Below, one piece after another: positions 38,671 through 54,923 of a stretch of 55,430 nucleotides of DNA. Numbering within the stretch: the first letter of the stretch is position 1; the number at the start of each line of letters is the position of its first letter. Source of the DNA: a virus (lineage: Duplodnaviria; Caudoviricetes); the IMG/VR virus record IMGVR_UViG_3300038520_000575, positions 1-55,430 of that record; one strand, written 5' to 3'. The translations under genes were made by a program, and so were the position numbers. The notes beneath the pieces are model-generated. The model did not search any database and was not told the DNA's origin. It saw only the letters and a list, made by a program, of their open reading frames with translations.

Positions 38671-38690
38671 GATTATATCCTTATAGTAAG

Positions 38691-38714
38691 AGGGGGCAAG
38701 TTGCCCTGCCCCCT
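38691..38714 (-). terminator. Hairpin after the capsid genes (terminator/attenuator)
   Basis: AGGGGGCAGG-GCAA-CTTGCCCCCT stem with a GNRA loop; weak U-tract. Confidence 0.65.
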
Positions 38715-38722
38715 AAAGTTTA

Positions 38723-39142: not shown

Positions 39143-39157
39143 TTATAAGTCTCCCTA

Positions 39158-40096: not shown

Positions 40097-40119
40097 AGTT
40101 CATACCTTCCTTTTTGAGG

Positions 40120-41028
40120 TTATGAGTTGAAGTTTATTCGCCCTTCAAGCCTTGCGGAGTCTATTTCAGCCTCTAGCTTCTCATACTCCCAAGGTTTCAT
40201 CTTGCGAATTTCCGAAGCACTGAAGACGCGTTTCCCTGCATCAGGGTTCGTTTGTACTTCTCTAGCAGGAGTTTTTGTTACGGCATCTGCCGCACTTTCC
40301 TGCCGCTTCTTTTTAGTTTTAACAAGACCAGTGTCAGCCTTGTAAAGGTCTACTACACGAGCCGCCCACTTTGCGTCAGTATTGTTCTTATAAATACCTT
40401 CTGCGATAGTTGTAGGTTGCTCTTCGAGCCATCCTAGAAACTCCTTGTTGGATTTAAGCTCGTCAAAGTCAGGGTGTAGTCTTAGCAGTTCCTCGTAGGC
40501 TTTCTGCTTTTCCAACTCCTTTTCCCGTTCTTTGATAGTGCCTATCTCCTCACGAAGTTTGGACACCTGTGATTCCGTCTGCATAGACGCAACCGTTTGC
40601 ACTACGTCAAACACGTCGGGGTAACGTTCCTTAAACTCATTAAGTTCTTCTTGAGTTCTTGGCGGGGTTACTCCCCTTGGCATCTCGACAGCACGTTCCT
40701 GCATCGCTTTACGAAGAGACGCAAGCTCTTCTTTATGCTCCGACAGTTTCGTGTCATAATGCTTTTTAAGGTCGTCATACCGTTTTTTATAGTCGTGTTC
40801 AGGCTCTGTAGGCTCTGACTTAGTGACAAAGCTATTTGCATCCTGAGTAGCTGCAGTTGTTGCAGGGTCAGGTTGAGTATCTTCTGCGGAAGCTTCAACA
40901 TTTTCTGTATCTTCTTCATCGTCTTTGTATACCTCTTCTTTGTACTTTCCACGATATAAGTTTGGGTTGTTTACAACTCCGAAAGAGTCGTTGGATTTGT
41001 TGGCTCTGTAGCCTTTTGCTTTTGCCAT
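40120..41028 (-). CDS. Capsid scaffolding protein
   Basis: Acidic N-part, YKKRYDDLK coiled coil, HPDF, C-terminal EIDSARLEGRI; upstream of the capsid gene. Confidence 0.8.
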   Translation of the reverse strand: MAKAKGYRANKSNDSFGVVNNPNLYRGKYKEEVYKDDEEDTENVEASAEDTQPDPATTAATQDANSFVTKSEPTEPEHDYKKRYDDLKKHYDTKLSEHKEELASLRKAMQERAVEMPRGVTPPRTQEELNEFKERYPDVFDVVQTVASMQTESQVSKLREEIGTIKEREKELEKQKAYEELLRLHPDFDELKSNKEFLGWLEEQPTTIAEGIYKNNTDAKWAARVVDLYKADTGLVKTKKKRQESAADAVTKTPAREVQTNPDAGKRVFSASEIRKMKPWEYEKLEAEIDSARLEGRINFNS

Positions 41029-41045
41029 TTTATTTACCTCATCAT

Positions 41046-41110
41046 GCGGGGCTACTTGGCTTGTAGGTAGCCGCTTCGGTTATGTCAGGGCCGTATTACG
41101 GGTAGCTGAC
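41046..41110 (-). promoter_or_regulatory. Twin-hairpin cis-regulatory RNA upstream of the scaffold gene
   Basis: GUCAG-CUAC-CCGU-AAU-ACGG-CC-CUGAC and GCGG-CUAC-CUAC-AAGCCAA-GUAG-CC-CCGC: different stems, same internal loop. Confidence 0.7.
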
Positions 41111-41114
41111 TAAT

Positions 41115-43400
41115 TCATCGTGTTAGAAACGATTCATTTCCCTGCAGAGTTGCATCTGCAACAGCAGTAGGAGTAAGTATCCCTGCCGCCATTTCTAAAA
41201 TAGCAATGGGGGGTGTCGCCTTGGTAGCTATTTTAGTCATGGCTCTTCCTGCTAACTTAAATGCAGTTTTAGGGTCATTTTTAAATGTTTCTATAAAATT
41301 TATTTTAGATTTGTCATCGGAGAATACCTGTTCCTGAAGAAAAATTGCTATGTCGTTTATAGAACGTCCTTTACCACTTTTAATTTCTTCTTTTAAACTG
41401 TCGGCAAAATCCATATTTTTTTTCAATTCAGATTTTGGCATTCTTGCAAAATAGTCCGTGTTTTGTTTAGCGTGTGTTCTCCACGCTTCCTTAACACCCT
41501 CAAACAACTCATCTATAGTTACTTTTCTGCTTTTGATTACCCTATTACCCTTTTCTATAAATGGAGTGTTAGCGTAACTTCTTGCTCTGTTTATGTCAGG
41601 AGTATGAAACTTTCCCACATCCTCTTTTCCGTAACCATAATCAACTGTGAAACTTACCTCATCAGGGTCTAAAGGTTCTCCTCTGTAAACATTTATAAGT
41701 TTACCTTTTGCCGCCCCCTGAACCTGTTGACCATTCTCTTCTATCTTGCGCTCAGTATCCTTAACACCACGATTGTTTATCTTCTCTAGTCTGTCCTTGC
41801 CTATTATGTTTACAAGATATGGGGCTACAACAACTTCCCCGCGAGACACTGCAACGTCAATCATCGAACTTGCCTTAGGATTGTCAGCAGTTATACCTCG
41901 ACGAACAGCTTCCTCTTGAGCTTGGCGCAACATATTTATAATATCTGTTTCTCCTGCAAATGTAACCGCAGAAGCATTAATAACAAACGCACCCTCTGGT
42001 AACTTTCCTTCCTTGTCATCTGCTACCTCTTGAGCATCCGTAGCCTGACTAGGTGGCACACCATCTACAAAACCAGAAGCTGAGTCTGCCATTCTTACCC
42101 CGCCACCGGGGGCTAATCGTTGTACAAAACCGCCTGTGTTAAACGCTATATCGTCTGTGATATCATCGTCCTCTGCACTTATACCTCGTTCATAATCTAC
42201 TGCACGTTGGGCAAACTTTTCTGCTTCTCTCTTGTCTAAACCCGCGTCCCTTGCTCTTTGTCTTGTTTGTGACATTGTGGCTATCTGCCGTTTAGCGATA
42301 TTCTGTTTTTCCTTCTCTGTTAAATCCCTCTGTTGAACATCAACAGTGGTTCTTACAGGAGTTACTAAATCTCGTATCATATCTCCGAAGTTGCCCCTGC
42401 CACTCCTTGCTATCGACAGAACCTCTAGTATCTTTGTATCGGACAATCCTGTGGTCGCTGACAACTTAGCTATATGAGACATCATACCAACTTTGGAATA
42501 CCCAAATCTAGGACTGTAGAATGTTCCGTTTGCCTTATAAAACCCATCAAGAGGATTGTCTGATATTCTGATTCCACCACTACCATCTATTGTTTGATTT
42601 ATAGGTTGACCTCTCAGAAAAAATCCATCCTGCCCGTCTTTACTCCTATCAAATCTAAACGTTTCAGGAAGAAATCCTTTTTGAACTGCCTCTAAATTTT
42701 TTAATTGTTTGAAGGAGATACCCTGTCTATTACCTGTGTAAAAATTTTCTCCCGGACCTCGCACTATATTTAAGTTATTAAAGGTCATAACAAATCCTGC
42801 GTCTGCATCTCCTCTAGACATCGCGGCTCGTACGGCATCTATCTTATCAGCCTGCACTTTTCTTGCCTCGTTAGCGAGAAGATTAGTTCCCTCTCCTCCT
42901 GTAAGTGCAGATACGCCAATCCCTAATAACGGGTTCATAGCTGAAGCTATAGTTTTGATAGCATAAGGAGCCGCCCCCTCTAAAGTTTGCACTATTCCGT
43001 TGTCTGTAGCATTTCTAAATAAATCTTTAAAATCGTCAAATAGTTCAGTTCTGTCCTCTACTATGGTAGGGCGTTTGAGATTATCAAAACTATTCATAGC
43101 CTCTTCCCCAAAAGTAAAGTTAACTATGTTTTCAGGACGAAAAGCACTGGCTAGAATAGAAGTGTCATCATCACCACCACCCCCACCACCTTGTTCTTCA
43201 TACGATATAGGAACTCCTGCTATCTCAGGAGTGTCTACATCTATACCTGTCTGTTCTTCTAGACTAGCAGAACCACCTATGTGTTGGCTAAAATAATCAA
43301 CAAATGAATTTTTGTACTGGTCTGCTGTTATAGGTGTAGTCCCTGTGTACCTAAACGAGGTAGGCGGTGATATTTCCCCTATGTTGATTCTATTTACCAT
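41115..43400 (-). CDS. Multidomain head-module protein (xxGG-associated domain, ART-like C-terminal domain)
   Basis: Between portal and scaffold; FNTGG/LAPGG, ADD..LPEGAFVI and AVSRGEVVV motifs; VYRG...GKFHTPD..RARSYA. Confidence 0.55.
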   Translation of the reverse strand: MVNRINIGEISPPTSFRYTGTTPITADQYKNSFVDYFSQHIGGSASLEEQTGIDVDTPEIAGVPISYEEQGGGGGGDDDTSILASAFRPENIVNFTFGEEAMNSFDNLKRPTIVEDRTELFDDFKDLFRNATDNGIVQTLEGAAPYAIKTIASAMNPLLGIGVSALTGGEGTNLLANEARKVQADKIDAVRAAMSRGDADAGFVMTFNNLNIVRGPGENFYTGNRQGISFKQLKNLEAVQKGFLPETFRFDRSKDGQDGFFLRGQPINQTIDGSGGIRISDNPLDGFYKANGTFYSPRFGYSKVGMMSHIAKLSATTGLSDTKILEVLSIARSGRGNFGDMIRDLVTPVRTTVDVQQRDLTEKEKQNIAKRQIATMSQTRQRARDAGLDKREAEKFAQRAVDYERGISAEDDDITDDIAFNTGGFVQRLAPGGGVRMADSASGFVDGVPPSQATDAQEVADDKEGKLPEGAFVINASAVTFAGETDIINMLRQAQEEAVRRGITADNPKASSMIDVAVSRGEVVVAPYLVNIIGKDRLEKINNRGVKDTERKIEENGQQVQGAAKGKLINVYRGEPLDPDEVSFTVDYGYGKEDVGKFHTPDINRARSYANTPFIEKGNRVIKSRKVTIDELFEGVKEAWRTHAKQNTDYFARMPKSELKKNMDFADSLKEEIKSGKGRSINDIAIFLQEQVFSDDKSKINFIETFKNDPKTAFKLAGRAMTKIATKATPPIAILEMAAGILTPTAVADATLQGNESFLTR

Positions 43401-43654
43401 TACTCATAAACGAACGTGTCGTTTTCCCTTTCAATTTGACTACGAACTACAGCCTCGTGACTACTCTTGAGCTTCAGGAGCATTTCCAGTAAAGCCAGCT
43501 TCCCCTGCGCTCGGAGCAGTTCCGACTCCGATTGTGCCGTTACCACGCCCTGAATCGTCAGTTCGCGGAGGTCCATCAGGTACTCCCTCAGGGCTTCCCA
43601 CTCCTTGCCCTGCACCAGCGGGGCTATCTTCTGCGCTTGCTTCTTGTTGAGCAT
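43400..43654 (-). CDS. Conserved small protein downstream of portal
   Basis: W..LREYL...ELLRAQGK...LL.LK pattern; TAATG-coupled to the next gene; overlaps the portal 3' end. Confidence 0.65.
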   Translation of the reverse strand: MLNKKQAQKIAPLVQGKEWEALREYLMDLRELTIQGVVTAQSESELLRAQGKLALLEMLLKLKSSHEAVVRSQIERENDTFVYE

Positions 43655-45572
43655 TTGCCATCATTCCTTGTAACATCTTAGCATACAGTTGTGCTTCGTT
43701 AGCATCATTAACTAAACTATCAGGGTCTATATCCTGAGAGATAGCAAGTTCTCGCATTAAATTAGGTATTTTGATAAAGGGCGCAAGCATCGGGTTGGCG
43801 ACAGTCTGCAGGAGGGTTGTAAGCCTCTGACTCCGCACTTCCTTCTGCATTACAGCAGCAACACCCCTCGGTTTTATCTCCAAGTCCCCCACAATATCCG
43901 GGGCATCGTCGTTGAATTGCATGTTCCATTGAAAATAAGCCTCTCCTAGCGGTTTTAGTAACATATCATCTATATTTTTTATCACAGTCTTCATCGATAA
44001 TCCCGCAGAACCCATCAACATTGATAGCCCTGCCGCAGTGCGTCCTGTGCCTGTAACGCCTGTCTGTCCATGTACGATGGACGGTATACCTGTTTCCTCA
44101 TCTGCCAGTTGTCTACTAATCTGATACATCTGCAAGTTCTCGCCTGCAGTGTTCGGAAACTTCAAACCGTTGATAGCCGTACCAGTAACACCTGACTGTC
44201 TTCGGAAAATTTTTCCGGGGAAGATGTCCATGTTCTGACCGGGGACAAGGCTTGCTTCGTCTACGTCGAACACCAAGTTACCCGCAAGAGCTAGATTATC
44301 GATAGCCATACGAACGTGACCGTTCATCAGCTTCTGTGCGTCTTCCATGTTCTCTGCAACACCAACGCCCCATAACTGATACGGATTTACCTCGTATGGA
44401 AACACATGATATGGAATACGTGCAGGAGTAAATGGATTCAGGACACAACGCAAAATCATATTACCACAAACCCAGATGTTAACCTGTAGCTCGTCGAACT
44501 CTGACATTGTATCTGCTTCTTTGAACCCTGCTTCCTTGGCTAGATAGTAGTCCAAGACTCCCCAGTATTCTAAAACCTCATACCTATTCTCAGAAGCGTA
44601 CGCCTCTGTTTCGTCCTCACGGATAGCATCCTCATAATACTTATCCTCGTAGTTAGGACCTTTAGCTAGTGTTTCTTCAATCGCTTCTGCCCTGAAGTAA
44701 GGTCGCTTTATCAGCGCACGTAGCTGTTGTCTGTTAAACCTGTGACGTTCTATGACGTATTCACAGTCATCGATGCTTGTAGCAGATGGGTCAGGATGAA
44801 AGTCCCACGCAGATACCATCTCTATACGTGGTACAGTCTTCTCATACGGCATGTACTGCCGTTGTCCATCTTCTCCACGTCCCCACTTGTGGACGCGCTT
44901 GTAAAAGTTAAGTGGCCCTTTGATGACACCAGTGCCAAGAAGAGCCGATTCAAATATAGTTTTACGAAAAACGTTTACTGCGTTAGTATCAAGAAGCTGG
45001 TCGTGGATAGTCTTCTCCATCGCCAACGCTGTCTTCTGTGCTGGACTAAGCTGTGGTTCGCCCATCTTTGCAGGGCCTTCAGCTAGTGGTAAACCAGCAT
45101 ACTCTTCCTTCAATCCACCTAGAAAATCTGCTTGCAATGCTCCGGGCTGAAGTTGTCGCCCATCTCCGACAAAACCAAAAGGGTCTTGAGGAGCTGTTTG
45201 GTCTAGGGGAGTTTCCATGTGAGCAAACTCTGCTATACCCTCAGGCACAGGAGTTGCTTGCACCACCAGTGGGAACTTCTTGTTTGCAAACAGGATGTCT
45301 GTTATTTGTCCGTACGCGGCAAGAACTTTAGTCTTGGTTATCCTGACAAACACCTTTGATTTTTCCGACTCTCTATATTGTGTGGTAGAGTCGTAGATAC
45401 CACGGAAGTTTTTGTATGACTGCAACCATCGTTGCTCATACGCGTACCGTCCTGTTTCAGCCTCTTTGTATTTAGCCTGAACATACCCCGCAAGTCCGGG
45501 AAACTGCTCTTCAGGATTTATAAGAGAGACAGTGGTATCGTCTTCAGGTTGAAGGAAGTTATCTTCTGACAT
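43461..45572 (-). CDS. Portal protein
   Basis: 703 aa; ITKTKVLAA, LLGTGVIKGP, WDFHPDP, WGVGVAE and TAAGLSML motifs; packaging module. Confidence 0.88.
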   Translation of the reverse strand: MSEDNFLQPEDDTTVSLINPEEQFPGLAGYVQAKYKEAETGRYAYEQRWLQSYKNFRGIYDSTTQYRESEKSKVFVRITKTKVLAAYGQITDILFANKKFPLVVQATPVPEGIAEFAHMETPLDQTAPQDPFGFVGDGRQLQPGALQADFLGGLKEEYAGLPLAEGPAKMGEPQLSPAQKTALAMEKTIHDQLLDTNAVNVFRKTIFESALLGTGVIKGPLNFYKRVHKWGRGEDGQRQYMPYEKTVPRIEMVSAWDFHPDPSATSIDDCEYVIERHRFNRQQLRALIKRPYFRAEAIEETLAKGPNYEDKYYEDAIREDETEAYASENRYEVLEYWGVLDYYLAKEAGFKEADTMSEFDELQVNIWVCGNMILRCVLNPFTPARIPYHVFPYEVNPYQLWGVGVAENMEDAQKLMNGHVRMAIDNLALAGNLVFDVDEASLVPGQNMDIFPGKIFRRQSGVTGTAINGLKFPNTAGENLQMYQISRQLADEETGIPSIVHGQTGVTGTGRTAAGLSMLMGSAGLSMKTVIKNIDDMLLKPLGEAYFQWNMQFNDDAPDIVGDLEIKPRGVAAVMQKEVRSQRLTTLLQTVANPMLAPFIKIPNLMRELAISQDIDPDSLVNDANEAQLYAKMLQGMMANAQQEASAEDSPAGAGQGVGSPEGVPDGPPRTDDSGRGNGTIGVGTAPSAGEAGFTGNAPEAQE

Positions 45573-45790
45573 TAGTAATCGCGTTCTTCAGCCATGTTCA
45601 TAACGGATGGGTCTACGGTAGTCTTGGTTTGTTGCTTCGGCATGTCCTCAGTAAGAACACCAGTCTGTGCGCGAGTATCAAACTCTAAACCCTGACGGGT
45701 TAGTTGAGTTTCACCCATGTTCGCATCAACTGAAGTCTTGTCTGCACCCATGATGTAAGAAGCACCGTAGTTATAATTATTTCCCGGCAT
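45572..45790 (-). CDS. Small hypothetical protein (72 aa)
   Basis: AAGGAG SD before ATG 45790; TAATG-coupled to the portal gene. Confidence 0.7.
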   Translation of the reverse strand: MPGNNYNYGASYIMGADKTSVDANMGETQLTRQGLEFDTRAQTGVLTEDMPKQQTKTTVDPSVMNMAEERDY

Positions 45791-45800
45791 GTTATTCTCC

Positions 45801-47564
45801 TTAGTTAGATAGGAAGCCTTGATTCTGATTAACAGAGTTGGCTTCGGGTTCTCTGTCAATATTTACGAAGCCAGCGTCTTCTTGAGCTATTTGTCTCATG
45901 CTTGCTTCTTGTAAATTCTCTGGTACTGTGGCATCAGCTACTGTCTTAGACCCCATAACTGTCATAGGAACAGCTGCTCCACCCACAGTTCCTAACAAAG
46001 CTTTTCCTGCAGCTCCTGTGATAACTTCTCCTGCAAAAGCGGCAGGTTCTTGAAGAGCCGTACGCACACCCTCGAATGTTAAAGCTCCTAAGATACCCCC
46101 ACCTATTATCTTGCCTGTTTTCTTAAAATTCTTGTATAATTCTGAAAAGGTATCTAAATCTAAACCTTTACTTTTCAAGTTTTCAAGCTTCTCAGGGTCG
46201 GGGTCTAATAATTCACTAGTAGGATTTAAGTTTGCTTGAAATTTTGCTTTTTCGTCGGCTCGTATTTCTTGAGTTTTTAATTCTCTTTGGACTTTAGCAC
46301 GGATTGCCGCTTCATCTAATTCGCCTAACTGCCCCTCAAGTGTTAGTCGTTCTGTTTGTAATTGAGCTGTACGCAGTTTTGATTCTTCAATTCGTTCTTC
46401 TCTTCTTGCCTTAACTAATTCTACATCTTCTTTATCTAACTCACCCTGAACCTGTGTACCTACAATCTCAGCACCCTTGGGGATAACCGCTAACTTTGGC
46501 GCACCTTCGACTGTTAAGCCTTTTGCTTCTACATTCAACATCGCTGGTAGCTCATTTAAAGTAGAAAGACCTAAAACTTCACCATACATATTCTGCAATG
46601 CACGGAGAGCTTGCTTGGCAGTAGTTCCTTCACCTGTAATAATTTGAGATGTGTAGTGTTTACGGGTGATGGCCTTCATGCCATCTACAGTCTCATCAAA
46701 AGATTTGTGACCCATAATAATACTGGATTCAGATTTGTACCCTAATTCAAACGCAATGATAGAGGGGACAATCTTACGAATATCCTTAGCACCCTCAAGT
46801 TCTCTGCCCATTGCTTTTTCAAAGGGTTTAAAGCGAGAAGCAATACCGTCCTTTGCCTTTACAGCAGTGGTCATCTTTTTTACAAAAGTTTGTTCTGCTT
46901 TTTTAGGGTCTACAACATCCTTACCTAAAAAGATGTACTCACGACCCTCGGCTCTGGCAACATCAGCCGCATCGCGGAGAATTTCTAGAGCCACCTCAGG
47001 AAGGTCAAGTTCGTTACGAATCTTGTTTACGCGACGGTACTCTTCCTTAAAAGCTCCTATTTCAAAATCAATATCATCAAGCTTAATACCAGCGACTTCT
47101 CCCGGACGAAGCGGGACTAAAGCGTTAAATGCTACTGCTGAACGAACTTGGGGGTTTTCAATGACTGCTATACCATCTGTCAGAGCTTTAAGTGACTGTT
47201 TAGCTGCTGGAACAGCTTTGAACGCCTTTGACCTACGTGCTTGGTCGGCTTGTGATAATGGTTTATCATCCACTTCTATTGCTCTAGCTTGACCCCCAGC
47301 ACCAAACACCTTTGCAAAAGGAGAAGGTTCTCCCCGTGCTGCGAAGGCACGTTCTAAAGTATTTTGGGTACTTAGTAATTCTACAAAAGTAGTCTCTTTT
47401 CCCACCTCATTAAGTTTTATCAGAAAATCTTCATCAGCAAGGCTTGACCACTTGTCGTCCATACTACGACCTGCAGCTTCGATGTAGCTTCTCATCTTAT
47501 CTCCAGCTTTACCTCTTATATCAAGAGCTTCGCCAATCGTAATATCTTTAGTTATTTCTGCCAT
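45801..47564 (-). CDS. Tyrosine recombinase-family protein with long C-terminal extension
   Basis: PLRPGEVAGIKLDDIDF (box I), KIRN, YIF, KDIRK, IMGH and RKHY catalytic motifs. Confidence 0.75.
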   Translation of the reverse strand: MAEITKDITIGEALDIRGKAGDKMRSYIEAAGRSMDDKWSSLADEDFLIKLNEVGKETTFVELLSTQNTLERAFAARGEPSPFAKVFGAGGQARAIEVDDKPLSQADQARRSKAFKAVPAAKQSLKALTDGIAVIENPQVRSAVAFNALVPLRPGEVAGIKLDDIDFEIGAFKEEYRRVNKIRNELDLPEVALEILRDAADVARAEGREYIFLGKDVVDPKKAEQTFVKKMTTAVKAKDGIASRFKPFEKAMGRELEGAKDIRKIVPSIIAFELGYKSESSIIMGHKSFDETVDGMKAITRKHYTSQIITGEGTTAKQALRALQNMYGEVLGLSTLNELPAMLNVEAKGLTVEGAPKLAVIPKGAEIVGTQVQGELDKEDVELVKARREERIEESKLRTAQLQTERLTLEGQLGELDEAAIRAKVQRELKTQEIRADEKAKFQANLNPTSELLDPDPEKLENLKSKGLDLDTFSELYKNFKKTGKIIGGGILGALTFEGVRTALQEPAAFAGEVITGAAGKALLGTVGGAAVPMTVMGSKTVADATVPENLQEASMRQIAQEDAGFVNIDREPEANSVNQNQGFLSN

Positions 47565-49268
47565 CTAGTATCCAAATGTAGCATCAAAGGGTTGGAATGC
47601 TTGGTCTTTTATGCCTTGCAAAGTTTTGTGTATCGATGTATAACCGTTCGTACGAGTCATAACCATATATCGTAGAGCATCGTATGCGTGGTCTTCAGCT
47701 TTTGTATCAACGTCTTCACTATTGGTTTTGGACAGCGGAATGCCTGACATCTGTGCGACGGTGTGTTTACAGGTGGAGAAGATGCGTAAACGTGGTTCTT
47801 TGGTATAAGGGTCGTCCGCTAGTCTTCTGTGTAATTCCATTTTTCCTTGCAGTCTGTTTCTGTCTGATGGTGTCCATCTAACACCAGCACGCATCATAGT
47901 TTCTGCAATCGAAGGCCCGAAGCCTGTCTTGTTCCAGCAGGAAGAGTCTAGTACATTATAGTGGGGTAGAGGGTCTAATTCCTCCATCTCTAGTATTTTA
48001 TCGGCTAGCTGTTCTGCTGTCAAGTGTTTGGCGTACAACTCCCTGTAAACCCAAATATTATTATCCCAATCAATAGCACCCCACAGAACACAAGAAGGGG
48101 ACGCATAACCGTAGTCTGCTGCTCGTATGCGAGGCCAGTTAGTGGGTAAATCAAAATGTTCGACAACATGCCTGCTCCTTGAGAACTCTGGGAATGCCGC
48201 ACCCTCTGCAACATCCCAGTCACCTTCTAATAAGCGACGACGCTCAACGTCGGGTAGAGAACGGAGCATCGCCTCATATTGCCCGTCAGCCATTAGGTAC
48301 GGATTGTCCGTGAGACGGGCAGGTACGAATTTACGATAGAACAGAGGCTTACCTTCCTTCTCGTGACCCTTAGGCCATAGGAAGGGTTTACCTGTTTCTA
48401 AATCTGAAGCTGGGAACGGTTTGTTGTGTTCCGCTATATCTATGTACATCTTCTTGACCCACCAGCCACCAACTCCCCCCGGGTTTGCTGTGCAACGCAT
48501 ACAGAGGTTTCTCTGTAGCTCTTGGTCTGTACTACGAAGACGTGACCTGAGATAATCCCACACGTAGCTTGTTGGGTACTGGGTTATCTCGTCTATGCCT
48601 ATCCAGTTGAAAGCCTGTCCTTGGAAACGTGTTACGTCCTTATCTCTGTCGAGATAGGTGAACCACATGGTTGCACCTGACGGGAAGACCCACGTTGACT
48701 TCGACTCTCGAAAGGTCGCTCCGGGGAACGCCTTGGGATATAGTTGTTTCGCTTTATCTATAAGTTCTGTTAGTTCATCCAGTGTACGACGAAGTAGTAA
48801 GCCCCTATGGTTAGGATTGTGGCAATACCTGAGAGGGTCAGCCAGTAGAGCGAAGCTCTTGCCGCCCCCTGCCGCTCCACCGTAAAGAACGTCCTGCTCT
48901 GGCGCAGATAAGAACTCTTCCTGAGGGCCTTCGTTCGGCTTGAATATAACGGGTGCATCATCGATTATCTCTTTCACAGTAGAGGGTAGGTTAGATACGT
49001 CGTCCATATCTATAACACGCGTACTCTTCTGGTTCAAGGCTGATTCTACTTTCTTCGCACTCTTCTTCAGGACGCGTGCGTAGTCAGCCTTCTGCTGTGA
49101 TTTCTTCTGTAACTTCTCTTTTGCACGCTCTGCCTTGCGAACGCGTGCCTGTAGAGCGCGTCTTGCCCGTTCCTTACGAGATAGATTGTACACCGCCTTA
49201 GGAGCGTTGGGGTCTTTTTTGGGTCTACCCCGTGGCTTCTTAGGCATTTCGTCTGGCCATTCAGCCAT
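47565..49268 (-). CDS. terL: Terminase large subunit
   Basis: YGGAAGGGKS Walker A, IGIDE Walker B, TANPGG, ADYG and EDHAYDALRY nuclease motifs. Confidence 0.95.
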   Translation of the reverse strand: MAEWPDEMPKKPRGRPKKDPNAPKAVYNLSRKERARRALQARVRKAERAKEKLQKKSQQKADYARVLKKSAKKVESALNQKSTRVIDMDDVSNLPSTVKEIIDDAPVIFKPNEGPQEEFLSAPEQDVLYGGAAGGGKSFALLADPLRYCHNPNHRGLLLRRTLDELTELIDKAKQLYPKAFPGATFRESKSTWVFPSGATMWFTYLDRDKDVTRFQGQAFNWIGIDEITQYPTSYVWDYLRSRLRSTDQELQRNLCMRCTANPGGVGGWWVKKMYIDIAEHNKPFPASDLETGKPFLWPKGHEKEGKPLFYRKFVPARLTDNPYLMADGQYEAMLRSLPDVERRRLLEGDWDVAEGAAFPEFSRSRHVVEHFDLPTNWPRIRAADYGYASPSCVLWGAIDWDNNIWVYRELYAKHLTAEQLADKILEMEELDPLPHYNVLDSSCWNKTGFGPSIAETMMRAGVRWTPSDRNRLQGKMELHRRLADDPYTKEPRLRIFSTCKHTVAQMSGIPLSKTNSEDVDTKAEDHAYDALRYMVMTRTNGYTSIHKTLQGIKDQAFQPFDATFGY

Positions 49269-49659
49269 CTATTACCACTTCTTTCTTTGGTGGTAGTAAG
49301 ACTACCCCGTGAATTGCCTGAACGTTGTGGTTCATTGTCTCTTGTTTACCAAGACCAACCCTATTTAGTATCGATTCTGCAGCACGTAGACGTAAATCGT
49401 CCCCTCGCTCGACCACTGGGGTGTCTACAAGCTCTACCATCCTGTTTGCAGCACGCAAACTATGTCCTGCTAGCAAAGATTTGGTTCGTTCGACTATTTC
49501 TTCTGCTAATTTATCGCGTAACCACGATACTGAGCCTACAGAATAGCCTGCAACCTCTGCAGCTTTGTTGAAATTGCCGTTATTCTCGAACAAAGCAGTC
49601 AGGAATGTCTCCTGTTTCTCAGATAACTGCTTTTTAGGAGCTTGTTGTACTAAATTCAT
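49261..49659 (-). CDS. terS: Terminase small subunit
   Basis: LSEKQETF...AAEVAGYS HTH; directly upstream of terL. Confidence 0.75.
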   Translation of the reverse strand: MNLVQQAPKKQLSEKQETFLTALFENNGNFNKAAEVAGYSVGSVSWLRDKLAEEIVERTKSLLAGHSLRAANRMVELVDTPVVERGDDLRLRAAESILNRVGLGKQETMNHNVQAIHGVVLLPPKKEVVIDG

Positions 49660-49769
49660 GGGTTATTCCTAGTTATTTGATGCTGGGAAGCGTACCGAAG
49701 ACCTAAATGGAAAGGAAATTATCGCTATGTGTGGGGTCGTTCGCTGTTTTGCAAGCCCCAGCACTCTTT

Positions 49770-49798
49770 ATTATGGGGTTGGTACAGATTATTGTCAA
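49770..49798 (-). promoter_or_regulatory. sigma70-like promoter of the late operon
   Basis: Minus strand TTGACA-N17-CATAAT upstream of terS. Confidence 0.7.
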
Positions 49799-49827
49799 TA
49801 AAAAATTTGACACCCTGCATTTTTTAG

Positions 49828-49856
49828 TTGACAGGATGTAAATCTGACCCTATCAT
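49828..49856 (+). promoter_or_regulatory. sigma70-like promoter with no downstream + strand gene
   Basis: TTGACA-N17-TATCAT. Confidence 0.65.
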
Positions 49857-49900
49857 GGCAGTACACCTGCCGGGGGAAACCCCATAGGGTATACTCCCTA
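49857..49900 (+). ncRNA. Candidate structured ncRNA 5' end (three tandem hairpins)
   Basis: GGCAG-TACAC-CTGCC, GGGG-GAAA-CCCC and TAGGG-TATACT-CCCTA directly after the promoter. Confidence 0.35.
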
Positions 49901-50272
49901 CACGTTCGTCGGGAATACCATACAGGAAACTCCAAAATATAAAAAAATATGTCGACATTGCTACGCAAATGCACCCGCCCCCCGGTGTCCCATGCGTGCG
50001 CCCACAAGGTAAATTTATTTGTTTTACCTCATTGATGTGGCACTATCCTGACTATTGACCGCACCCCCAACATAAAGCCCAACTGCAACCCTCGAAGGTA
50101 TACGCACCCGCCCGCGCCCGTGTGCGCGTTTTGTCATTTGTCATTAAGCTGTATCGATAACCCGCAAGGGAAGAGATAGAGAAGAAAAAGCGTAGCAATA
50201 ACCCGAACACTACACCCGCCAATAAACCAACAAGAACAAGCCTTTGATTATTATTCTGGCATTTAGGCAAAC

Positions 50273-50309
50273 AAAAACCCCCAGACCATATGGAGGAAGT
50301 CTGGAGGCT
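50273..50309 (-). terminator. Rho-independent terminator of the early cluster
   Basis: GCCTCCAGAC-(TTCCTCCATATG)-GTCTGGGGGT followed by TTTTGTTT. Confidence 0.75.
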
Positions 50310-50350
50310 TTCGCGGGAGGAAACCCAAGTCAACATAGGAGAATTTTAGT

Positions 50351-50593
50351 TTATACTTTTTCCCCGTTGATATCAACCTTAAAATAAGGAATATCCGCAA
50401 GCGTTTTTATCTGCTTATTATAAGTATATTCCTCAATGCCAAAAGTCTTGAGCATTTCTTGCAAGGTATTCATCTGGGAATTAATATGCTTTACAGTTTT
50501 AGCAACAAGCACCAACTGCTCATGTGGGATAACTGCAAAGTTCTCAGACTCTTTTTCATTAGTGATATTATAAGTAATATTATTTTTATGCAT
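50351..50593 (-). CDS. Hypothetical protein
   Basis: GAGAGG SD; overlaps the upstream stop. Confidence 0.65.
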   Translation of the reverse strand: MHKNNITYNITNEKESENFAVIPHEQLVLVAKTVKHINSQMNTLQEMLKTFGIEEYTYNKQIKTLADIPYFKVDINGEKV

Positions 50594-51107
50594 TTTCTTT
50601 CCTCTCGTTGAGTTTGTAAATTGTGCGGTAACTTCTGCCCGCCTGATTGATATCCTTTGTTATAATATCATAATTTAAATTACGCAAGACTTTTATAGAT
50701 TCGCTAACAGTCCCGCGCTTACGTCCAATACTTCCCGCTATAGTCGGAATCGCTACAAAGTGACCGCGAGATATTTCACGCAATACAGCCTTATCAGTTG
50801 GATTGAGTTTATCGCGATACTTTCCGACTGTCTTAACTTCAACGGGTTTTCTATTTAGTTTGTCCTTGTCTTCATCTGGTATGGAATCCCCGAACACGTT
50901 CGCAAGGAATTTTTTTGTTGTCTCGTGTTCGTGTTGGTCGTTCTTCATTACCTGTTCAAGACGTCCAGACATTACGTTGACAGCACCCCAGAGAGTTCGG
51001 CAAGCGTCCTTAACTTCAATAAGTGATTGCCCGTACAATTTATAATCGCGAATTGATGGGATATCTTCTTCAGTAGGGATTAAATTATTAGGATATTTTT
51101 TATTCAT
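50586..51107 (-). CDS. Protein with C-terminal (winged) HTH domain
   Basis: LNPTDKAVLREI...IPTIAGSIGRKRGTVSESIKVLR...YKL. Confidence 0.7.
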   Translation of the reverse strand: MNKKYPNNLIPTEEDIPSIRDYKLYGQSLIEVKDACRTLWGAVNVMSGRLEQVMKNDQHEHETTKKFLANVFGDSIPDEDKDKLNRKPVEVKTVGKYRDKLNPTDKAVLREISRGHFVAIPTIAGSIGRKRGTVSESIKVLRNLNYDIITKDINQAGRSYRTIYKLNERKENA

Positions 51108-51123
51108 CGTTTAAGTTCCTTTT

Positions 51124-51204
51124 CTAGTTAATGAATATTGCATAAATAATAAGACAAAGTAGAACAACAGTCATTGTTCTATAAATAATATATAAACCTT
51201 CCAA
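51124..51204 (-). CDS. 26-aa membrane peptide (not in ORF track)
   Basis: TTG start after GAGGTG; MEGLYIIYRTMTVVLLCLIIYAIFIN; fills the intergenic gap. Confidence 0.5.
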   Translation of the reverse strand: MEGLYIIYRTMTVVLLCLIIYAIFIN

Positions 51205-52191
51205 TTAAGCCACCTCGCATAAGGTTTGCCAGTCTGGTGACGTTATCACGTCCCGCACTTCATCTTGACGTTTACGTCTGATGTCGTGTTGTTTCTGGTT
51301 TTCCTTACCTCTCGCCTCTATTGTATGTGTTGACCAGTGAGTGAGCGCATTATATCCCGCCCAGACAGTTTCACCCAGTTCCTTTGATTCCTCAAAAAAC
51401 TGCTCCAGTAAATACTCCAGTAATTTTTCATTTACTGGTCTGGATTCTGGTCTAACATAATCTGCGCTTTTCTTCTCAGGTTTTTTACAGAGCGTATTAC
51501 GTAGAATATGAGCAAAGCTCTCAACATCAAGAAGTGTTCGCGCCCAGTTATTCATCAAGTCGCGTTGAGCGTCGAACATCTCCAGACTAAGCACACTCTT
51601 TCCAATCATCGCGGGAACGTCTAAGCCTCTAGTATGTTTCCGTTTCTGGTGATATGCCTTCTGCCCGCCAAATACAAGCGAGTTTCGGCATAAGTCACGA
51701 TAAGCACCAGAGAATATTTGAAAAGCCCAAGACATATCTATGCTATTATAAATGTCAATTCTTGGAACAACAGCATCGTCAATAGAACGCGAATTGATGT
51801 CATGTTTTAGGTCGGTAAAGTACACAGTACGGTGCGCTTTTTTACCGTCCTCGAAAAGCCTGTCGACTACCTCGACGCGCCTGTCGTCGAAGTTACTATC
51901 CTCGATTTGTTTAGCTTGTTCGTCGAACGCACTCTGATGTGATACCAGATTATAAGTTCTGGCAATCGGTCGCATATTTAGAACGCGTCCAATAGCTACA
52001 TTAAACACCGCAGAGTAATCTGTTAAACTTTCCATCGTGTCAAATGTTGGCTCATTTGCAAAGACTGGTATTCTTTCAAATTGGGCATATGCCTTATAGA
52101 GTGACATGTCGCGTAAATCATTATGTTTGTATGACATACCACCACGAATAACATTAAACCCGTTACTGCTGTTTTCTACTATATCTAACAT
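51205..52191 (-). CDS. DUF932-like protein
   Basis: YNLVSH, YNSIDMS, GAYRDLCRNS, RKHT and TVWAGYNALTHWSTH motifs. Confidence 0.75.
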   Translation of the reverse strand: MLDIVENSSNGFNVIRGGMSYKHNDLRDMSLYKAYAQFERIPVFANEPTFDTMESLTDYSAVFNVAIGRVLNMRPIARTYNLVSHQSAFDEQAKQIEDSNFDDRRVEVVDRLFEDGKKAHRTVYFTDLKHDINSRSIDDAVVPRIDIYNSIDMSWAFQIFSGAYRDLCRNSLVFGGQKAYHQKRKHTRGLDVPAMIGKSVLSLEMFDAQRDLMNNWARTLLDVESFAHILRNTLCKKPEKKSADYVRPESRPVNEKLLEYLLEQFFEESKELGETVWAGYNALTHWSTHTIEARGKENQKQHDIRRKRQDEVRDVITSPDWQTLCEVA

Positions 52192-52214
52192 TTTGTATCC
52201 TTTCCTATGTTAGT

Positions 52215-52838
52215 TTAAATGTCGTGAAGTCTTTTCCACGTTAGCCAAGTTATAGCTTGCATCTCGTAAGCTCTCAAGCTCTTTTTTCGGTATGTGGTAA
52301 TCGCGCCCGCGTTCCTATACGCGTCCTGAATCTCTACATACTTTGTTTTGTTGATGTAATTACTTGGACTGGTGAGCGGGAAACGTCGTCCTTCATAGAT
52401 GCCCAGAGCGTGACCATCGACGCAACACGTATCATATCCCAGAATACACTGAAAAAACGATTTTATTTTTTGCCCGTTGAGTATCTTTTCTATTTCAGAG
52501 TCAAGGACGTGTGTTGTCCCGTCATCATCAACAAAAGTTGCGTTGAGTATTTGCCATGCCTTCTCTTTCATCGCGTTATAAGTAGACACTGGAAAACTGG
52601 TTATCTCGTCACCGTCTATAAAAGCCTCACACATTACGTGTGCATTCTCAATGTTACGTTCCCATTTGTTATTAGGTGACAGTGCCGACACAACACCCAC
52701 CACGACATTGACAGGTAAGCCGAACAAGTTCGCGATGCGTTCGCAATCCGAATAAGCGTTCGCGTACCATGTCACACCGTACCGACGTTCTGCGGGTGTT
52801 GATAGATTATATATTTTTAAGATGTTTTTTCCTGACAT
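52215..52838 (-). CDS. Conserved phage protein with possible HhH-GPD-like fold
   Basis: WY...SALSPNNKWERN, GQKIKSF, CVDGHA and MQAITW motifs. Confidence 0.55.
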   Translation of the reverse strand: MSGKNILKIYNLSTPAERRYGVTWYANAYSDCERIANLFGLPVNVVVGVVSALSPNNKWERNIENAHVMCEAFIDGDEITSFPVSTYNAMKEKAWQILNATFVDDDGTTHVLDSEIEKILNGQKIKSFFQCILGYDTCCVDGHALGIYEGRRFPLTSPSNYINKTKYVEIQDAYRNAGAITTYRKKSLRAYEMQAITWLTWKRLHDI

Positions 52839-52876
52839 ACTTAATGTCTCCTTTCGCTAGCTAGTAAAAGATAGCG

Positions 52877-54004
52877 TTAGGTTTTTGTCAAGTTCTTTAT
52901 TATGTGCGCGATAACGTCAACAGTGAAACCGTTACCCAACATTTTATAGCGTTGAGTATTAGAAACGTGATTGGTGTAATTATCAGGAACAGTCTGCAAG
53001 CGTTCGCACTCTAGCGGTGTAAGCTTGCGCCAACGTAACGCGTCTAGGCTTACTGCAACGTTGTCTTTCTGGACTGTCGTTAGTGCGTTTGTCTTCTCGT
53101 CAAGTCTTACTTCGAGTCGTTGTTTTGTCAGTCCCTTTGTCTCTTGTTTGTGGTCTTGTCTCACACCGTCAATAACGTAGCGTCCTCGCCATGCACCACA
53201 GAGTATCTTGGGTTCACGGTTGCCACCTTGCATTGTTGTTAGCGTGGGCGATTTGCCATCGATGTGGTAAACACGTTTGAGTATGTCATGTCCGTTTAAG
53301 TCTGCGTCGCCAACGTGACACAAACCGTCATCACTAAATACAAGTTGCCGTCTGTGTTTCTGGAAGTACGACTTGAGGTTGCCACCCTTCCAATAGTTCG
53401 CGTCGAGACAGTGTGCTTTGTCTCTATCTACAAATCCATCCTCTATGATATCGCGAAGAACTAACCCCTTGTCGTCAGGTTTTGTCACGTCTGGTATGTT
53501 CGTCCAGTACAGACGTTTGCGACACTGAGGCGACACAAGAGAGCTATTTATTTCTATTGGCTTTACTCCAAGTGCGTCAGATATTATGTCCTGATACTGT
53601 TGTTTCATCTTGACATTCTCAAGTAGAAAATAAGTAGGCTTTAGCTCTTTGAGTAATCTCACATATTCCCAAAACAACTTACTGCGTGGGTCGTCAAAGT
53701 TTAGTTGCTTACCCGCAAAGCTAAACCCTTGGCATGGTGAACCCCCAACAAGTAAATCAATCTTCTCGTGATTTTCCCAATTCTTTGGCATACCATAATT
53801 ATCAACCTTAACACGCAACAAACCATTATGTATTTCAATCTCTTGAACATCACCTAAATGTACAATTTCAGGATAATTTGCTTTTGCTACCTTGATAGGG
53901 TATGGGTCTATCTCACTTGCGTAGTATTTTGTCACAGGAATACCCGCTCTATCAAGAGCGATACGAAAACAACCCATACCATCAAACAGACTAAGAACTC
54001 GCAT
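52877..54004 (-). CDS. dcm: DNA (cytosine-5) methyltransferase
   Basis: LSLFDGMG, GGSPCQGFS, LENV, QCRKRLYW, LTPLECERLQ and YKMLGNG motifs. Confidence 0.93.
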   Translation of the reverse strand: MRVLSLFDGMGCFRIALDRAGIPVTKYYASEIDPYPIKVAKANYPEIVHLGDVQEIEIHNGLLRVKVDNYGMPKNWENHEKIDLLVGGSPCQGFSFAGKQLNFDDPRSKLFWEYVRLLKELKPTYFLLENVKMKQQYQDIISDALGVKPIEINSSLVSPQCRKRLYWTNIPDVTKPDDKGLVLRDIIEDGFVDRDKAHCLDANYWKGGNLKSYFQKHRRQLVFSDDGLCHVGDADLNGHDILKRVYHIDGKSPTLTTMQGGNREPKILCGAWRGRYVIDGVRQDHKQETKGLTKQRLEVRLDEKTNALTTVQKDNVAVSLDALRWRKLTPLECERLQTVPDNYTNHVSNTQRYKMLGNGFTVDVIAHIIKNLTKT

Positions 54005-54278
54005 TACCATCTCCTTCTTCCATTAAGAGTACATTACTTTTATATTCTGATATGAACATAAAACCACCACCATTGCCTTCTTCATCCTTAGACACTTCTA
54101 CACGCAAGGTTGGGTGTCCCGCTTTGTGTAGCACGAAACTAGCAAACCCATCCTCACCTACACCGTCAGTGTCTTTCATACCGTCGAACGTAGATATAGT
54201 ATATCCCTCAAGTTGTCCATAGTATTCTCGAAACCACTTCTCTCGCTTTTCCATGATGTCTTCTATATGATTAGTCAT
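53991..54278 (-). CDS. Hypothetical protein
   Basis: AGGAG SD; SKDEEGNGGGF motif. Confidence 0.7.
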   Translation of the reverse strand: MTNHIEDIMEKREKWFREYYGQLEGYTISTFDGMKDTDGVGEDGFASFVLHKAGHPTLRVEVSKDEEGNGGGFMFISEYKSNVLLMEEGDGNASS

Positions 54279-54282
54279 AATC

Positions 54283-54869: not shown

Positions 54870-54892
54870 GTCGTTCTCCTTTCATACAATAA

Positions 54893-54921: not shown

Positions 54922-54923
54922 AC

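What the first reader, a model, noticed from the sequence alone, without database searches (positions are those of the whole stretch)
45801..47564. Tyrosine recombinase inside the packaging operon with a virion-protein-like tail
Seen: catalytic motifs R (LRPGE), K, KxxR instead of HxxR, MGH and HY, followed by about 240 extra residues (coiled coil, Gly/Ala hydrophobic helices, VADAT, ...GFLSN). The gene abuts terL, sits just upstream of portal in the late operon and has no repressor or excisionase next to it. Known: phage integrases are normally early genes beside attP, and KxxR occurs in telomere resolvases. Inference: the enzyme may be packaged and co-ejected to act on incoming DNA (circularisation, integration or end resolution), or may resolve concatemers during packaging.
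Basis: partly seen in the sequence, partly recalled or inferred. Interest (0 to 1): 0.85.

Follow-up and report, generated by a model that had tools for sequence, protein, structure and literature searches.

The report
Tailed tyrosine recombinase in phage head operon
An uncultured group of abundant marine phages carries a working-looking DNA recombinase wedged between its DNA-packaging and portal genes, with a floppy tail that suggests, but does not prove, that the enzyme travels inside the virus particle.

Summary
On the minus strand, 45801-47564 encodes a 587-aa protein. Its first ~375 residues model as a two-domain tyrosine recombinase: the best solved-structure matches are lambda Int, Xer, Tn1549 Int, IntI and Cre. 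R153, K181, R263, H286 and Y304 are kept in 116-117 of 117 homologues. No homologue has the His of HxxR (S 74, K 34, A 7), so "KxxR" is not a family trait, and TelA matches are weak. A 68-residue helix and a disordered Gly/Ala tail ending in GFLSN follow.

The window is a complete HMO-2011-type marine podophage. Cultured relatives lack the gene. In 66 of 66 metagenomic loci that reach both flanks the order is terL-rec-orf72-portal. The gene evolves much faster than its neighbours. A second recombinase type with the same tail fills the slot in close relatives.

The large gene after portal is also hypervariable. It carries cell-wall hydrolase domains in relatives and shares the near-terminal [GS]F[LIVM][ST] motif.

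No attP-like tRNA piece, repressor, excisionase, second integrase or prophage copy was found.

Best reading (0.4): a capsid-loaded, co-ejected recombinase. Packaging is inferred, not shown.

The parts
45801..47564 (-). rec: 587-aa divergent tyrosine recombinase with a C-terminal extension (P0001)
   Evidence: ORF. Fold. Residue conservation.
47211..47564 (-). Residues 1-118: N-terminal helical (core-binding-like) domain plus a linker carrying the invariant Q108/R110
   Evidence: Helices 10-76 at pLDDT 87-97. Foldseek alignments of 310-350 columns to two-domain recombinases. R110 in 117/117 and Q108 in 116/117.
46440..47210 (-). Residues 119-375: catalytic domain (R153, K181, R263, K264, H286, Y304) plus a conserved post-Tyr helix pair and two strands
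46230..46433 (-). Residues 378-445: a single 68-residue helix (coiled-coil-like)
   Evidence: DSSP helix 378-445, pLDDT about 75-93.
45804..46229 (-). Residues 446-587: disordered Gly/Ala-rich tail with ...PMTVMGSKTVADAT... and terminal GFLSN
   Evidence: pLDDT below 50. Tails of homologues listed. Motif statistics.
45572..45790 (-). orf72: conserved 72-aa protein of unknown function that always accompanies the rec slot. Its stop overlaps the portal start (TAATG).
   Evidence: Present in 71 of 80 loci and in every locus that reaches portal. No hit in 50,697 phage records.
47565..49268 (-). terL, large terminase subunit
   Evidence: phrog_979 at 1.1e-63 and Terminase_6N. 46-54% identity to HMO-2011-type isolates.
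49261..49659 (-). terS, small terminase subunit (weak match)
43461..45572 (-). Portal protein
   Evidence: SU10_portal at 3.3e-28 and phrog_332/1216. Isolate matches.
41115..43400 (-). p761: hypervariable post-portal protein ending ...PTAVADATLQGNESFLTR. Relatives carry C-terminal cell-wall hydrolase or lysozyme-like domains.
49770..49798 (-). Promoter-like site (TTGACA-17-CATAAT, 11/12) upstream of terS. No terminator-like site on this strand before the end of the capsid gene.
   Evidence: This is a consensus match only; the number of promoter-like sites is not above the shuffle expectation.

Best explanation
rec is a catalytically intact but very divergent tyrosine recombinase. It has a helical DNA-clamp domain and a catalytic domain with R153-K181-R263-H286-Y304, and it lacks the His of HxxR. 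It is made together with terminase, portal, scaffold and capsid proteins. A long helix and a disordered Gly/Ala tail with a near-terminal [GS]F[LIVM][ST] motif most likely act as a loading or anchoring module. This module would place a few enzyme copies inside the procapsid near the portal, alongside the polymorphic post-portal protein. The enzyme would then leave with the DNA and act at once on DNA in the new cell. The likeliest action is joining two copies of a phage site to circularise the genome; the alternative is inserting the genome into a host site.

Shown: the fold, the conserved catalytic residues, the operon position, the synteny, the hypervariability, the domain swap with a retained tail, and the shared motif. 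Inferred: packaging, ejection, the substrate and the reaction.
For: Fold: all Foldseek PDB hits at E<=1e-3 are tyrosine recombinases, led by lambda Int 1z1b at 2.8e-5 and XerA at 9.3e-4. XerH (E 1.0e-3), Tn1549 Int and IntI4 follow at E 1e-3 to 4e-3, and Cre at about 0.04-0.1. In BFVD, every named hit among the top 50 listed is an integrase or a DNA_BRE_C-domain protein, apart from one uncharacterised protein. 18 of 37 diverse homologues match PF00589 at E<=0.01, and P0143 passes the curated cut-off.

Catalysis: R153 117/117, K181 116/117, R263 116/117, H286 117/117, Y304 116/117.

Operon: terL, rec, orf72 and portal abut or overlap. A promoter-like site lies before terS, and no terminator-like site follows on that strand until after the capsid gene.

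Synteny: terL-rec-portal in 66 of 66 loci that reach both flanks, out of 80 loci.

Hypervariability: median identity is 44% for rec, against 79% for terL and 76% for portal. rec is lower in 57/57 and 58/58 loci.

Modularity: in phages with terL 80-87% identical, the slot holds P0176-type proteins. These share only residues 380-587 with rec (31% identity, E 4e-10) behind a different PF00589-like N-terminal part.

Shared signal: rec and p761 are the only 2 of 215 stop-terminated frames of 60 aa or more in the window that end in [GS]F[LIM][ST][RNQ]. The relaxed motif occurs in the last 15 residues of 25/58 distinct rec-slot tails and 11/30 post-portal tails, against 14/2608 other frames.

p761 relatives carry PF07486 (27-36 bits against a GA of 27, one of them just at the cut-off) or Pesticin/lysozyme (86.8 bits) at the C-terminus. 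Established knowledge (recalled, e.g. T7 gp16) treats this as typical of virion-borne ejected proteins.

Passages of PMC5512222 seen state that enzymes encoded next to portal/MuF genes are predicted to be packaged and injected.

Lysogeny markers are absent: no second PF00589 gene in two 100%-complete genomes, no tRNA or tRNA-like piece, no repressor or excisionase, and no copy in bacterial genomes.
Against: There are no virion proteomics, because no cultured phage carries the gene. A profile HMM of rec tails does not hit p761 significantly (domain E 11), so the shared tail is a motif-level resemblance only. The motif was noticed post hoc, and the Fisher counts ignore the relatedness of the sequences. 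Some post-portal proteins and some rec homologues lack the motif. No recombination site was identified, and no notable repeat pair turned up. Fast evolution and cassette exchange are also typical of ordinary integrases. Marine oligotroph genomes rarely hold prophages (passage in PMC6918029), so the absence of prophages is weak evidence. The genome ends are unknown, since the record is a circular assembly with a 77-nt overlap.
Confidence: 0.4

Rival explanations
1. rec is an ordinary lysogeny integrase that has moved into the packaging operon. The phages are temperate, rec integrates the circularised genome at a host attB, and the helix and tail serve oligomerisation or regulation rather than packaging.
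For: rec is the only PF00589-like gene in two complete genomes. The canonical int upstream of the replication module, described for other HMO-2011-type subgroups (passages of PMC9038755 and PMC6918029), is missing here. Rapid divergence and cassette replacement are classic integrase behaviour. The best fold matches are integrases.
Against: No tRNA or tRNA-like attP was detected. No repressor or excisionase was found. There is no non-coding space next to the gene. No rec or portal relative sits in a host context among one genome for each of 185,579 species: only three short phage-like MAG contigs appeared. The gene is co-oriented and packed with late genes. This reading does not explain the conserved tail motif shared with p761.
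Confidence: 0.3
2. rec is a late-acting DNA maturation enzyme that is not packaged. It resolves recombination or replication multimers or branched DNA, or relaxes DNA like a type IB topoisomerase, at the terminase-portal motor. The tail tethers it to the packaging machinery.
For: The gene abuts terL and precedes portal. The family has the R-K-R-H-Y set without the first His, which is the type IB topoisomerase signature (recalled). Lytic phages with tyrosine recombinases proposed to resolve multimers are on record (phiCbK gp143, passage of PMC3556154).
Against: Concatemers are the normal packaging substrate and need no resolution (established knowledge). No type IB topoisomerase appears among the listed fold matches. 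The helical N-terminal domain is recombinase-like. Hypervariability is unexpected for a housekeeping partner of the highly conserved terL and portal. Most HMO-2011-type phages package without it.
Confidence: 0.15
3. rec is an injected weapon against host DNA or host defences, not a tool for the phage genome. It would cut or rearrange a specific host or rival-element sequence early in infection.
For: It is hypervariable and exchanged as a cassette, like p761. Passages of PMC5512222 describe diverse enzymes next to portal/MuF genes as injected effectors.
Against: 'Recombinase' and 'integrase' occur 0 times in the main text of that survey. No target is known. The full recombinase architecture with a clamp domain suggests strand exchange rather than simple cleavage.
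Confidence: 0.1

Closest known systems
Lambda Int / Xer / Tn1549 Int / IntI type tyrosine recombinases (Pfam PF00589)
   Same: Two-domain fold. Box I Arg in LRPGE with the following D-I-D-F, a hairpin Lys, Arg II, the His of (L/M)GH, and the Tyr nucleophile.
   Different: The window protein scores 22 bits, below the 27.1 cut-off. No homologue has the HxxR His. His-to-Tyr spacing is 18 residues rather than about 9 (the latter recalled). There are about 210 extra C-terminal residues. The gene lies inside the packaging/head operon, with no att-like, xis or repressor context.
P1 Cre-loxP (cyclisation of incoming terminally redundant DNA)
   Same: A phage tyrosine recombinase whose proposed job is to circularise the infecting genome. 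The gene lies near the packaging functions (P1 layout recalled). Cre is among the fold matches.
   Different: Cre is not known to be packaged (recalled). No lox-like site was found here. Cre has no tail.
MuF / SPP1 gp7-type head proteins with polymorphic enzymatic domains
   Same: Encoded beside the portal gene in the late operon, with variable enzymatic parts joined to a retained module (passages of PMC5512222).
   Different: No MuF domain was detected in rec or p761. The retained module is C-terminal here. Recombinases were not among the cargoes in that paper's main text (0 occurrences).
Telomere resolvases (TelA/TelK/TelN)
   Same: Tyrosine-recombinase-type catalytic core in a roughly 600-aa protein with extra domains.
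   Different: TelA matches are weak (E 0.11-0.33, probability 0.33-0.44, ranks 40-42). K at position 260 occurs in only 34/117 homologues. No long palindrome was seen.
Virion-packaged integrases and topoisomerases of eukaryotic viruses (retroviral IN, mavirus integrase, poxvirus topoisomerase IB)
   Same: The concept of an enzyme that acts on DNA being carried in the particle. The phrase 'integrase is packaged' was found in PMC6428243 (listing only). The other examples are recalled.
   Different: Different enzyme superfamilies (DDE) or a different architecture (topo IB). None is a tailed phage.

Membership tests
Tyrosine recombinase superfamily (PF00589-type) | Catalytic-domain fold preceded by a helical core-binding domain | tested here: met
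   AF2 model with pLDDT 77.6 overall and above 80 for most of residues 1-440. Top Foldseek PDB hits are all tyrosine recombinases over 310-350 aligned columns. BFVD hits are integrases.
Tyrosine recombinase superfamily (PF00589-type) | Profile match above Pfam's curated cut-off | tested here: not met
   The window protein scores 22 bits against a cut-off of 27.1. Among relatives, 18 of 37 match at E<=0.01, and one of the ten relatives scanned (P0143, 29 bits) passes.
Tyrosine recombinase superfamily (PF00589-type) | Arg I, Arg II, His/Trp III and the Tyr nucleophile conserved | tested here: met
   R153 117/117, R263 116/117, H286 117/117, Y304 116/117. R153 aligns to the box I Arg region of XerA. 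The Tyr lies 18 residues after the His, in a low-confidence loop.
Tyrosine recombinase superfamily (PF00589-type) | Catalytic Lys in the beta2-beta3 hairpin | tested here: inconclusive
   K181 is 116/117 conserved and sits at the start of strand 181-183, and it aligns to a Lys in the XerA hairpin.
Tyrosine recombinase superfamily (PF00589-type) | His of the HxxR motif | tested here: not met
   Position 260 is S 74, K 34, A 7, M 1, V 1, and never H.
Tyrosine recombinase superfamily (PF00589-type) | Site-specific cleavage and strand exchange | not testable with these tools
   Needs biochemistry.
Temperate-phage integrase (functional class) | attP next to the gene, often a tRNA fragment | tested here: inconclusive
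   No tRNA, no Rfam match at E<=1, and no non-coding DNA beside the gene. A non-tRNA attP inside coding sequence cannot be excluded.
Temperate-phage integrase (functional class) | Integrated copies in host genomes | tested here: not met
   No rec relative in genome contigs. The portal scan gave 3 short MAG contigs that carry matches to this phage's genes only, and none has rec. The scans are pattern-limited and cover one genome per species.
Temperate-phage integrase (functional class) | Repressor/excisionase module | tested here: not met
   No such family appears in the Pfam or PHROG scans of the flanking and early ORFs.
Telomere resolvase | Closest fold, and a family-wide K/Y-xx-R variant | tested here: not met
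   TelA at E 0.11-0.33 against lambda Int at 2.8e-5. K260 in 34/117.
Type IB topoisomerase | R-K-R-H-Y pentad without the recombinase His (definition recalled) | tested here: met
Type IB topoisomerase | Topo IB fold and domain architecture | tested here: not met
   No topoisomerase IB appears among the listed PDB matches. No Pfam Topoisom_I match.
Capsid-internal / ejected phage proteins | Encoded in the head-assembly operon beside portal | tested here: met
Capsid-internal / ejected phage proteins | Targeting element shared with another virion-borne protein | tested here: inconclusive
   A motif-level match with p761 and its family. The profile HMM is not significant.
Capsid-internal / ejected phage proteins | Presence in purified virions | not testable with these tools
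   No isolate carries the gene.

The most novel reading that the evidence does not exclude
This would be the first tailed-phage example of a site-specific recombinase carried inside the capsid and injected with the genome, a bacterial-virus counterpart of the packaged integrases of retroviruses and virophages. The incoming DNA would then be circularised or integrated before any phage gene is expressed. A short C-terminal [GS]F[LIVM][ST] peptide on a disordered linker would serve as a general capsid-loading tag, shared with the polymorphic lysin-bearing post-portal protein.
Probability: 0.3. Interest if true: 0.85.

Novelty: new variant of a known kind. Interest (0 to 1): 0.62.

Why it matters
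HMO-2011-type phages are described as a dominant marine viral group (abstract of PMC9038755). Subgroups without the canonical int were read there as obligately lytic (passage). A whole uncultured branch in fact carries an unrecognised recombinase in a place where annotation pipelines do not expect one. If the enzyme is packaged, the phage can process its DNA on arrival, by cyclisation or integration, and this would alter estimates of lysogeny in oligotrophic bacteria. It would also add recombinases to the list of injected phage cargo. The tail motif would give a testable capsid-loading tag. The many fast-diverging, naturally swapped recombinase domains would be a source of new site-specific recombinases.

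Tried and rejected
A profile of the full-length family against PDB sequences was dominated by coiled-coil noise. A profile of the catalytic region alone gave only XerA at E 0.015 and a Xer-like chain at E 0.22.

hhalign of the family against the single lambda Int sequence was uninformative (probability 0.1).

phmmer of the protein against PDB gave nothing.

The ESM Atlas on the tail (370-587) gave no hit above 0.80 and no structural match above TM 0.27.

Complex prediction with portal, orf72 and the rec tail 440-587 returned 'no answer' (score 0.00). That is no evidence either way.

The p761 fold was poor (mean pLDDT 51) and had no PDB match at E<=0.001.

Read laying used contigs only. The low summed depth over rec and p761, the loose ends near 47656, and the three RNA-library contigs over 38280-44178 are not usable as evidence by the tool's own rules.

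An invertible-segment (shufflon) idea was rejected, because the window has no long, good inverted repeat pair. The intergenic region 49660-50052 holds only short repeats and a divergent promoter-like palindrome. No candidate recombination site was identified.

The mobile-element or recent-insertion idea was rejected because of the fixed position in all loci.

A P0154 scan of viral contigs found nothing.

Literature: searches found no phage recombinase between terL and portal and no packaged phage recombinase. Supplements were not available and may list such genes for the metagenomic genomes of PMC9038755.
Full report
WHAT IS THERE. The coordinates are right, but the gene is on the minus strand: 45801-47564 encodes a 587-aa protein, P0001. 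The window is a complete virus record (CheckV 100%). Its last 77 bases repeat bases 2-78, the signature of a circular assembly of 55,352 bp. TerL and portal are most similar, at 46-54% identity, to the HMO-2011-type marine podophages: Roseobacter CRP phages, pelagiphages HTVC115P/103P/104P/033P, and Puniceispirillum phage HMO-2011. The plus-strand block 85-9762 encodes primase-like, DnaB-like, exonuclease, family A polymerase with a DnaJ-type zinc motif, PD-(D/E)XK nuclease and class II RNR proteins. The minus-strand run around the finding is terS (49261-49659), terL (47565-49268), rec, a 72-aa ORF (45572-45790), portal (43461-45572), a 761-aa protein (41115-43400), a scaffold-like 302-aa protein and the major capsid protein. 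The terL stop touches the rec start. The rec stop is followed by GGAG and the ATG of orf72. The orf72 stop overlaps the portal start as TAATG. A strong promoter-like site lies upstream of terS, and no terminator-like site follows on that strand until after the capsid gene. These are consensus matches only.

IS IT A TYROSINE RECOMBINASE? By sequence the match is weak: PF00589 at 22 bits, below the 27.1 cut-off, and PHROG integrase families at about 1e-4. The family is large, however. There are 177 proteins at E<=1e-3 among the 8000 candidates scored, all from metagenomes, and several are called 'integrase' by JGI. There are also 69 cluster representatives among 1.84 billion. Of 37 diverse members, 18 match PF00589 at E<=0.01, the best at 4.4e-10. 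In members such as P0143 (29 bits) the match spans profile positions 8-159 of 172.

An AlphaFold2 model built on 117 sequences is confident for residues 1-445. Every Foldseek PDB match at E<=1e-3 is a tyrosine recombinase. Lambda Int scores 2.8e-5 over about 335 columns, followed by XerA; XerH (E 1.0e-3), Tn1549 Int and IntI4 come next at E 1e-3 to 4e-3, with Cre weaker. TelA protelomerase appears only at E 0.11-0.33. Matches in the viral structure library are phage integrases.

In the 117-sequence alignment, R153 (LRPGE) and H286 (MGH) are invariant, and K181, R263 and Y304 are each kept in 116. The box I region aligns to that of XerA. Three departures stand out.
- The His of HxxR is never present. 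Position 260 is S 74, K 34, A 7, M 1, V 1.
- K264 is invariant.
- The Tyr lies 18 residues after the His, in a low-confidence loop. About 9 is usual (recalled).

THE EXTENSION. After the catalytic domain come a conserved helix pair (315-342) and two short strands. Then follow one 68-residue helix (378-445) and a disordered Gly/Ala-rich tail (446-587). Across the family the tail is poorly alignable, but two elements keep recurring. One is a hydrophobic ...A-A-V-P-M-I-M-x-P-T-E-L... element. The other is a near-terminal [GS]-F-[LIVM]-[ST] element, as in GFLSR, GFLSN, SFMTMQP, NFITMNPN and GFINR.

WHERE ELSE IS IT? No cultured phage has it: tblastn against 50,697 phage records gave no match at 1e-5. 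In HMO-2011 and the CRP phages, terL and portal are adjacent or nearly so, judged from the coordinates. In HTVC115P three small ORFs lie between them, and none is related to rec or orf72.

In IMG/VR, 94 stretches encode relatives, and the best 80 loci were kept. In all 66 loci that reach both flanks the order is terL-rec-portal. The other 14 run off the contig, and none shows a different neighbour. orf72 is found in 71 of 80 loci, including every locus that reaches portal. rec is much less conserved than its neighbours. Median identity to the window is 44%, against 79% for terL and 76% for portal, and rec is lower in 57 of 57 and 58 of 58 loci.

In phages whose terL is 80-87% identical, the same slot holds P0176-type proteins. 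These share only residues 380-587 with rec (31% identity, E 4e-10) behind a different, weakly PF00589-like N-terminal part. In one more distant relative (L091) the slot holds a 339-aa Lys-rich protein followed by orf72. In L092 there is only a 79-aa ORF. The slot is therefore polymorphic, and the tail can be kept while the enzyme is exchanged.

THE NEIGHBOUR THAT SHARES THE TAIL MOTIF. The 761-aa protein after portal (P0185) has no family match and no relative in cultured phages. It is the other hypervariable gene of the operon, at 36% median identity with mostly partial coverage. Its N-terminal three quarters are shared with metagenomic proteins. The C-termini of some of these carry a cell-wall hydrolase domain (PF07486, 27-36 bits against a cut-off of 27) or a pesticin/lysozyme-like domain (86.8 bits). 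From established knowledge (e.g. T7 gp16, recalled), a large podovirus protein with a peptidoglycan hydrolase domain in the structural operon is the hallmark of an internal, ejected virion protein.

The window's p761 ends ...PTAVADATLQGNESFLTR, and rec ends ...KTVADATVPEN...QGFLSN. These two are the only 2 of 215 stop-terminated frames of 60 aa or more in the window that end in [GS]F[LIM][ST][RNQ]. Over 86 loci, counting distinct tails once, the relaxed motif occurs in the last 15 residues of 25 of 58 rec-slot proteins and 11 of 30 post-portal proteins. It occurs in 14 of 2608 other frames (Fisher p about 2e-16 for the post-portal set).

Four caveats apply. I noticed the motif before testing it. 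The sequences are related, so the p-value is inflated. A profile HMM built from 79 rec tails does not hit p761 significantly (domain E 11). Many members of both families lack the motif. The shared element is a short linear motif, not demonstrable homology.

LYSOGENY MARKERS.
- The canonical integrase that some HMO-2011-type subgroups carry upstream of the replication module (passages of PMC9038755 and PMC6918029) is absent here.
- In two 100%-complete genomes the only PF00589-like match is rec itself.
- No tRNA and no Rfam match at E<=1 were found.
- No repressor, anti-repressor above noise, or excisionase was found.
- Pattern-seeded scans of one genome for each of 185,579 species found no rec relative. 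For the much better conserved portal they found only three short MAG contigs, which carry matches to this phage's genes only and no rec.
- The PMC9038755 passage states that subgroups IV-X have no identifiable lysogeny genes. The passages I read do not mention a recombinase between terL and portal. I could not see the supplements.

HOW IT MOST LIKELY WORKS. The following are shown. The enzyme has an intact recombinase active site and clamp architecture. It is under purifying selection for catalysis but diverges fast elsewhere. It is expressed from the head/packaging gene block. Its exchangeable enzymatic part sits on a retained helix-plus-disordered-tail module. Its terminal motif recurs on the neighbouring lysin-bearing protein.

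The following are inferred. The tail loads rec into the procapsid near the portal. rec leaves with the DNA and acts on arrival. The most economical reaction is Cre-like joining of two copies of a phage site in terminally redundant DNA, which would protect the genome from exonucleases. Immediate integration at a host site is the alternative, and it fits the cassette-like evolution. I put this packaged-recombinase reading at 0.4. The rivals are:
- a relocated but otherwise ordinary integrase, 0.3;
- a non-packaged maturation or topoisomerase-like enzyme at the packaging motor, 0.15;
- an injected anti-host enzyme, 0.1.

COMPARISON AND NOVELTY. By fold and catalytic residues it belongs to the tyrosine recombinase superfamily. 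It fails Pfam's cut-off and lacks one of the six canonical residues. It is not a telomere resolvase, and by architecture it is not a type IB topoisomerase, although it shares that family's five-residue signature. What is new is the combination of four things: a C-terminal helix and disordered tail, a fixed place between terL and portal in a large uncultured branch of an abundant marine phage group, hypervariability with domain swapping, and a tail motif shared with a putative ejected protein. The survey of injected phage effectors that I consulted has no occurrence of 'recombinase' or 'integrase' in its main text (PMC5512222). My phrase searches found packaged integrases only for eukaryotic viruses and a virophage (listing only). 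I therefore rate it a new variant of a known kind, with a bolder reading still open.

LIMITS. There is no experimental or read-level evidence. VIA-align was never available, so no residue-level superposition was made. The complex prediction gave no answer.

Noticed in passing
window 41115-43400 (-): The 761-aa post-portal protein has no family match. Relatives share its first ~570 residues but carry different C-termini, including a PF07486 cell-wall hydrolase and a pesticin/lysozyme-like domain. It looks like a polymorphic ejected protein. Its AF2 model is mostly low confidence.
   Followed up: partly
window 45572-45790 (-): A conserved 72-aa protein (mean column identity 69% over 19 sequences) always lies between the rec slot and portal. 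It is absent from cultured phages, and its function is unknown.
   Followed up: partly
window 2-78 and 55354-55430: A 77-nt exact end overlap shows that the record is a circular assembly of 55,352 bp. IMG/VR classes it as linear.
   Followed up: yes
window 2593-3174 and 3113-4678 (+): The 3'-5' exonuclease domain and the polymerase domain (with the DnaJ-type zinc motif) lie in two overlapping ORFs in different frames. The HMO-2011-type DNAP is described as one protein with the DnaJ piece between the exo and pol domains (passage of PMC9038755). This could be a split gene, a frameshift or a sequencing error.
   Followed up: no
window 25803-26325 (-), inside ORF 25593-26402: Eight tandem copies of a 60-nt (20-aa) unit lie inside a 269-aa ORF.
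   Followed up: no
window 32662-34473, inside ORF 31941-35096: Diverged repeat units recur at spacings of about 267-276 nt, some further apart, inside a 1051-aa protein. This suggests a repeated-domain tail or fibre protein.
   Followed up: no
window 10911-11137, inside ORF 10903-11256 (-): Short 27-nt-spaced repeats lie in a 117-aa ORF at the end of the minus-strand block.
   Followed up: no
window 50586-54010 (-): Upstream of the packaging genes lie a C-5 cytosine methylase (52877-54010), a DUF7178 protein, a DUF932 protein and a weakly replication-initiator-like winged-helix protein.
   Followed up: no
L091:186-1205: In a more distant relative (portal 63% identical) the terL-orf72 slot holds a 339-aa Lys-rich protein with no recombinase domain. 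In L092 the slot holds only a 79-aa ORF.
   Followed up: partly
window 38000-55430 in runs X3, X4, X5: Contigs at least 99% like this stretch occur in seawater, estuary and marine metagenomes of three studies other than the possible source (62-191 pieces per run). The phage or very close kin is therefore widespread.
   Followed up: partly
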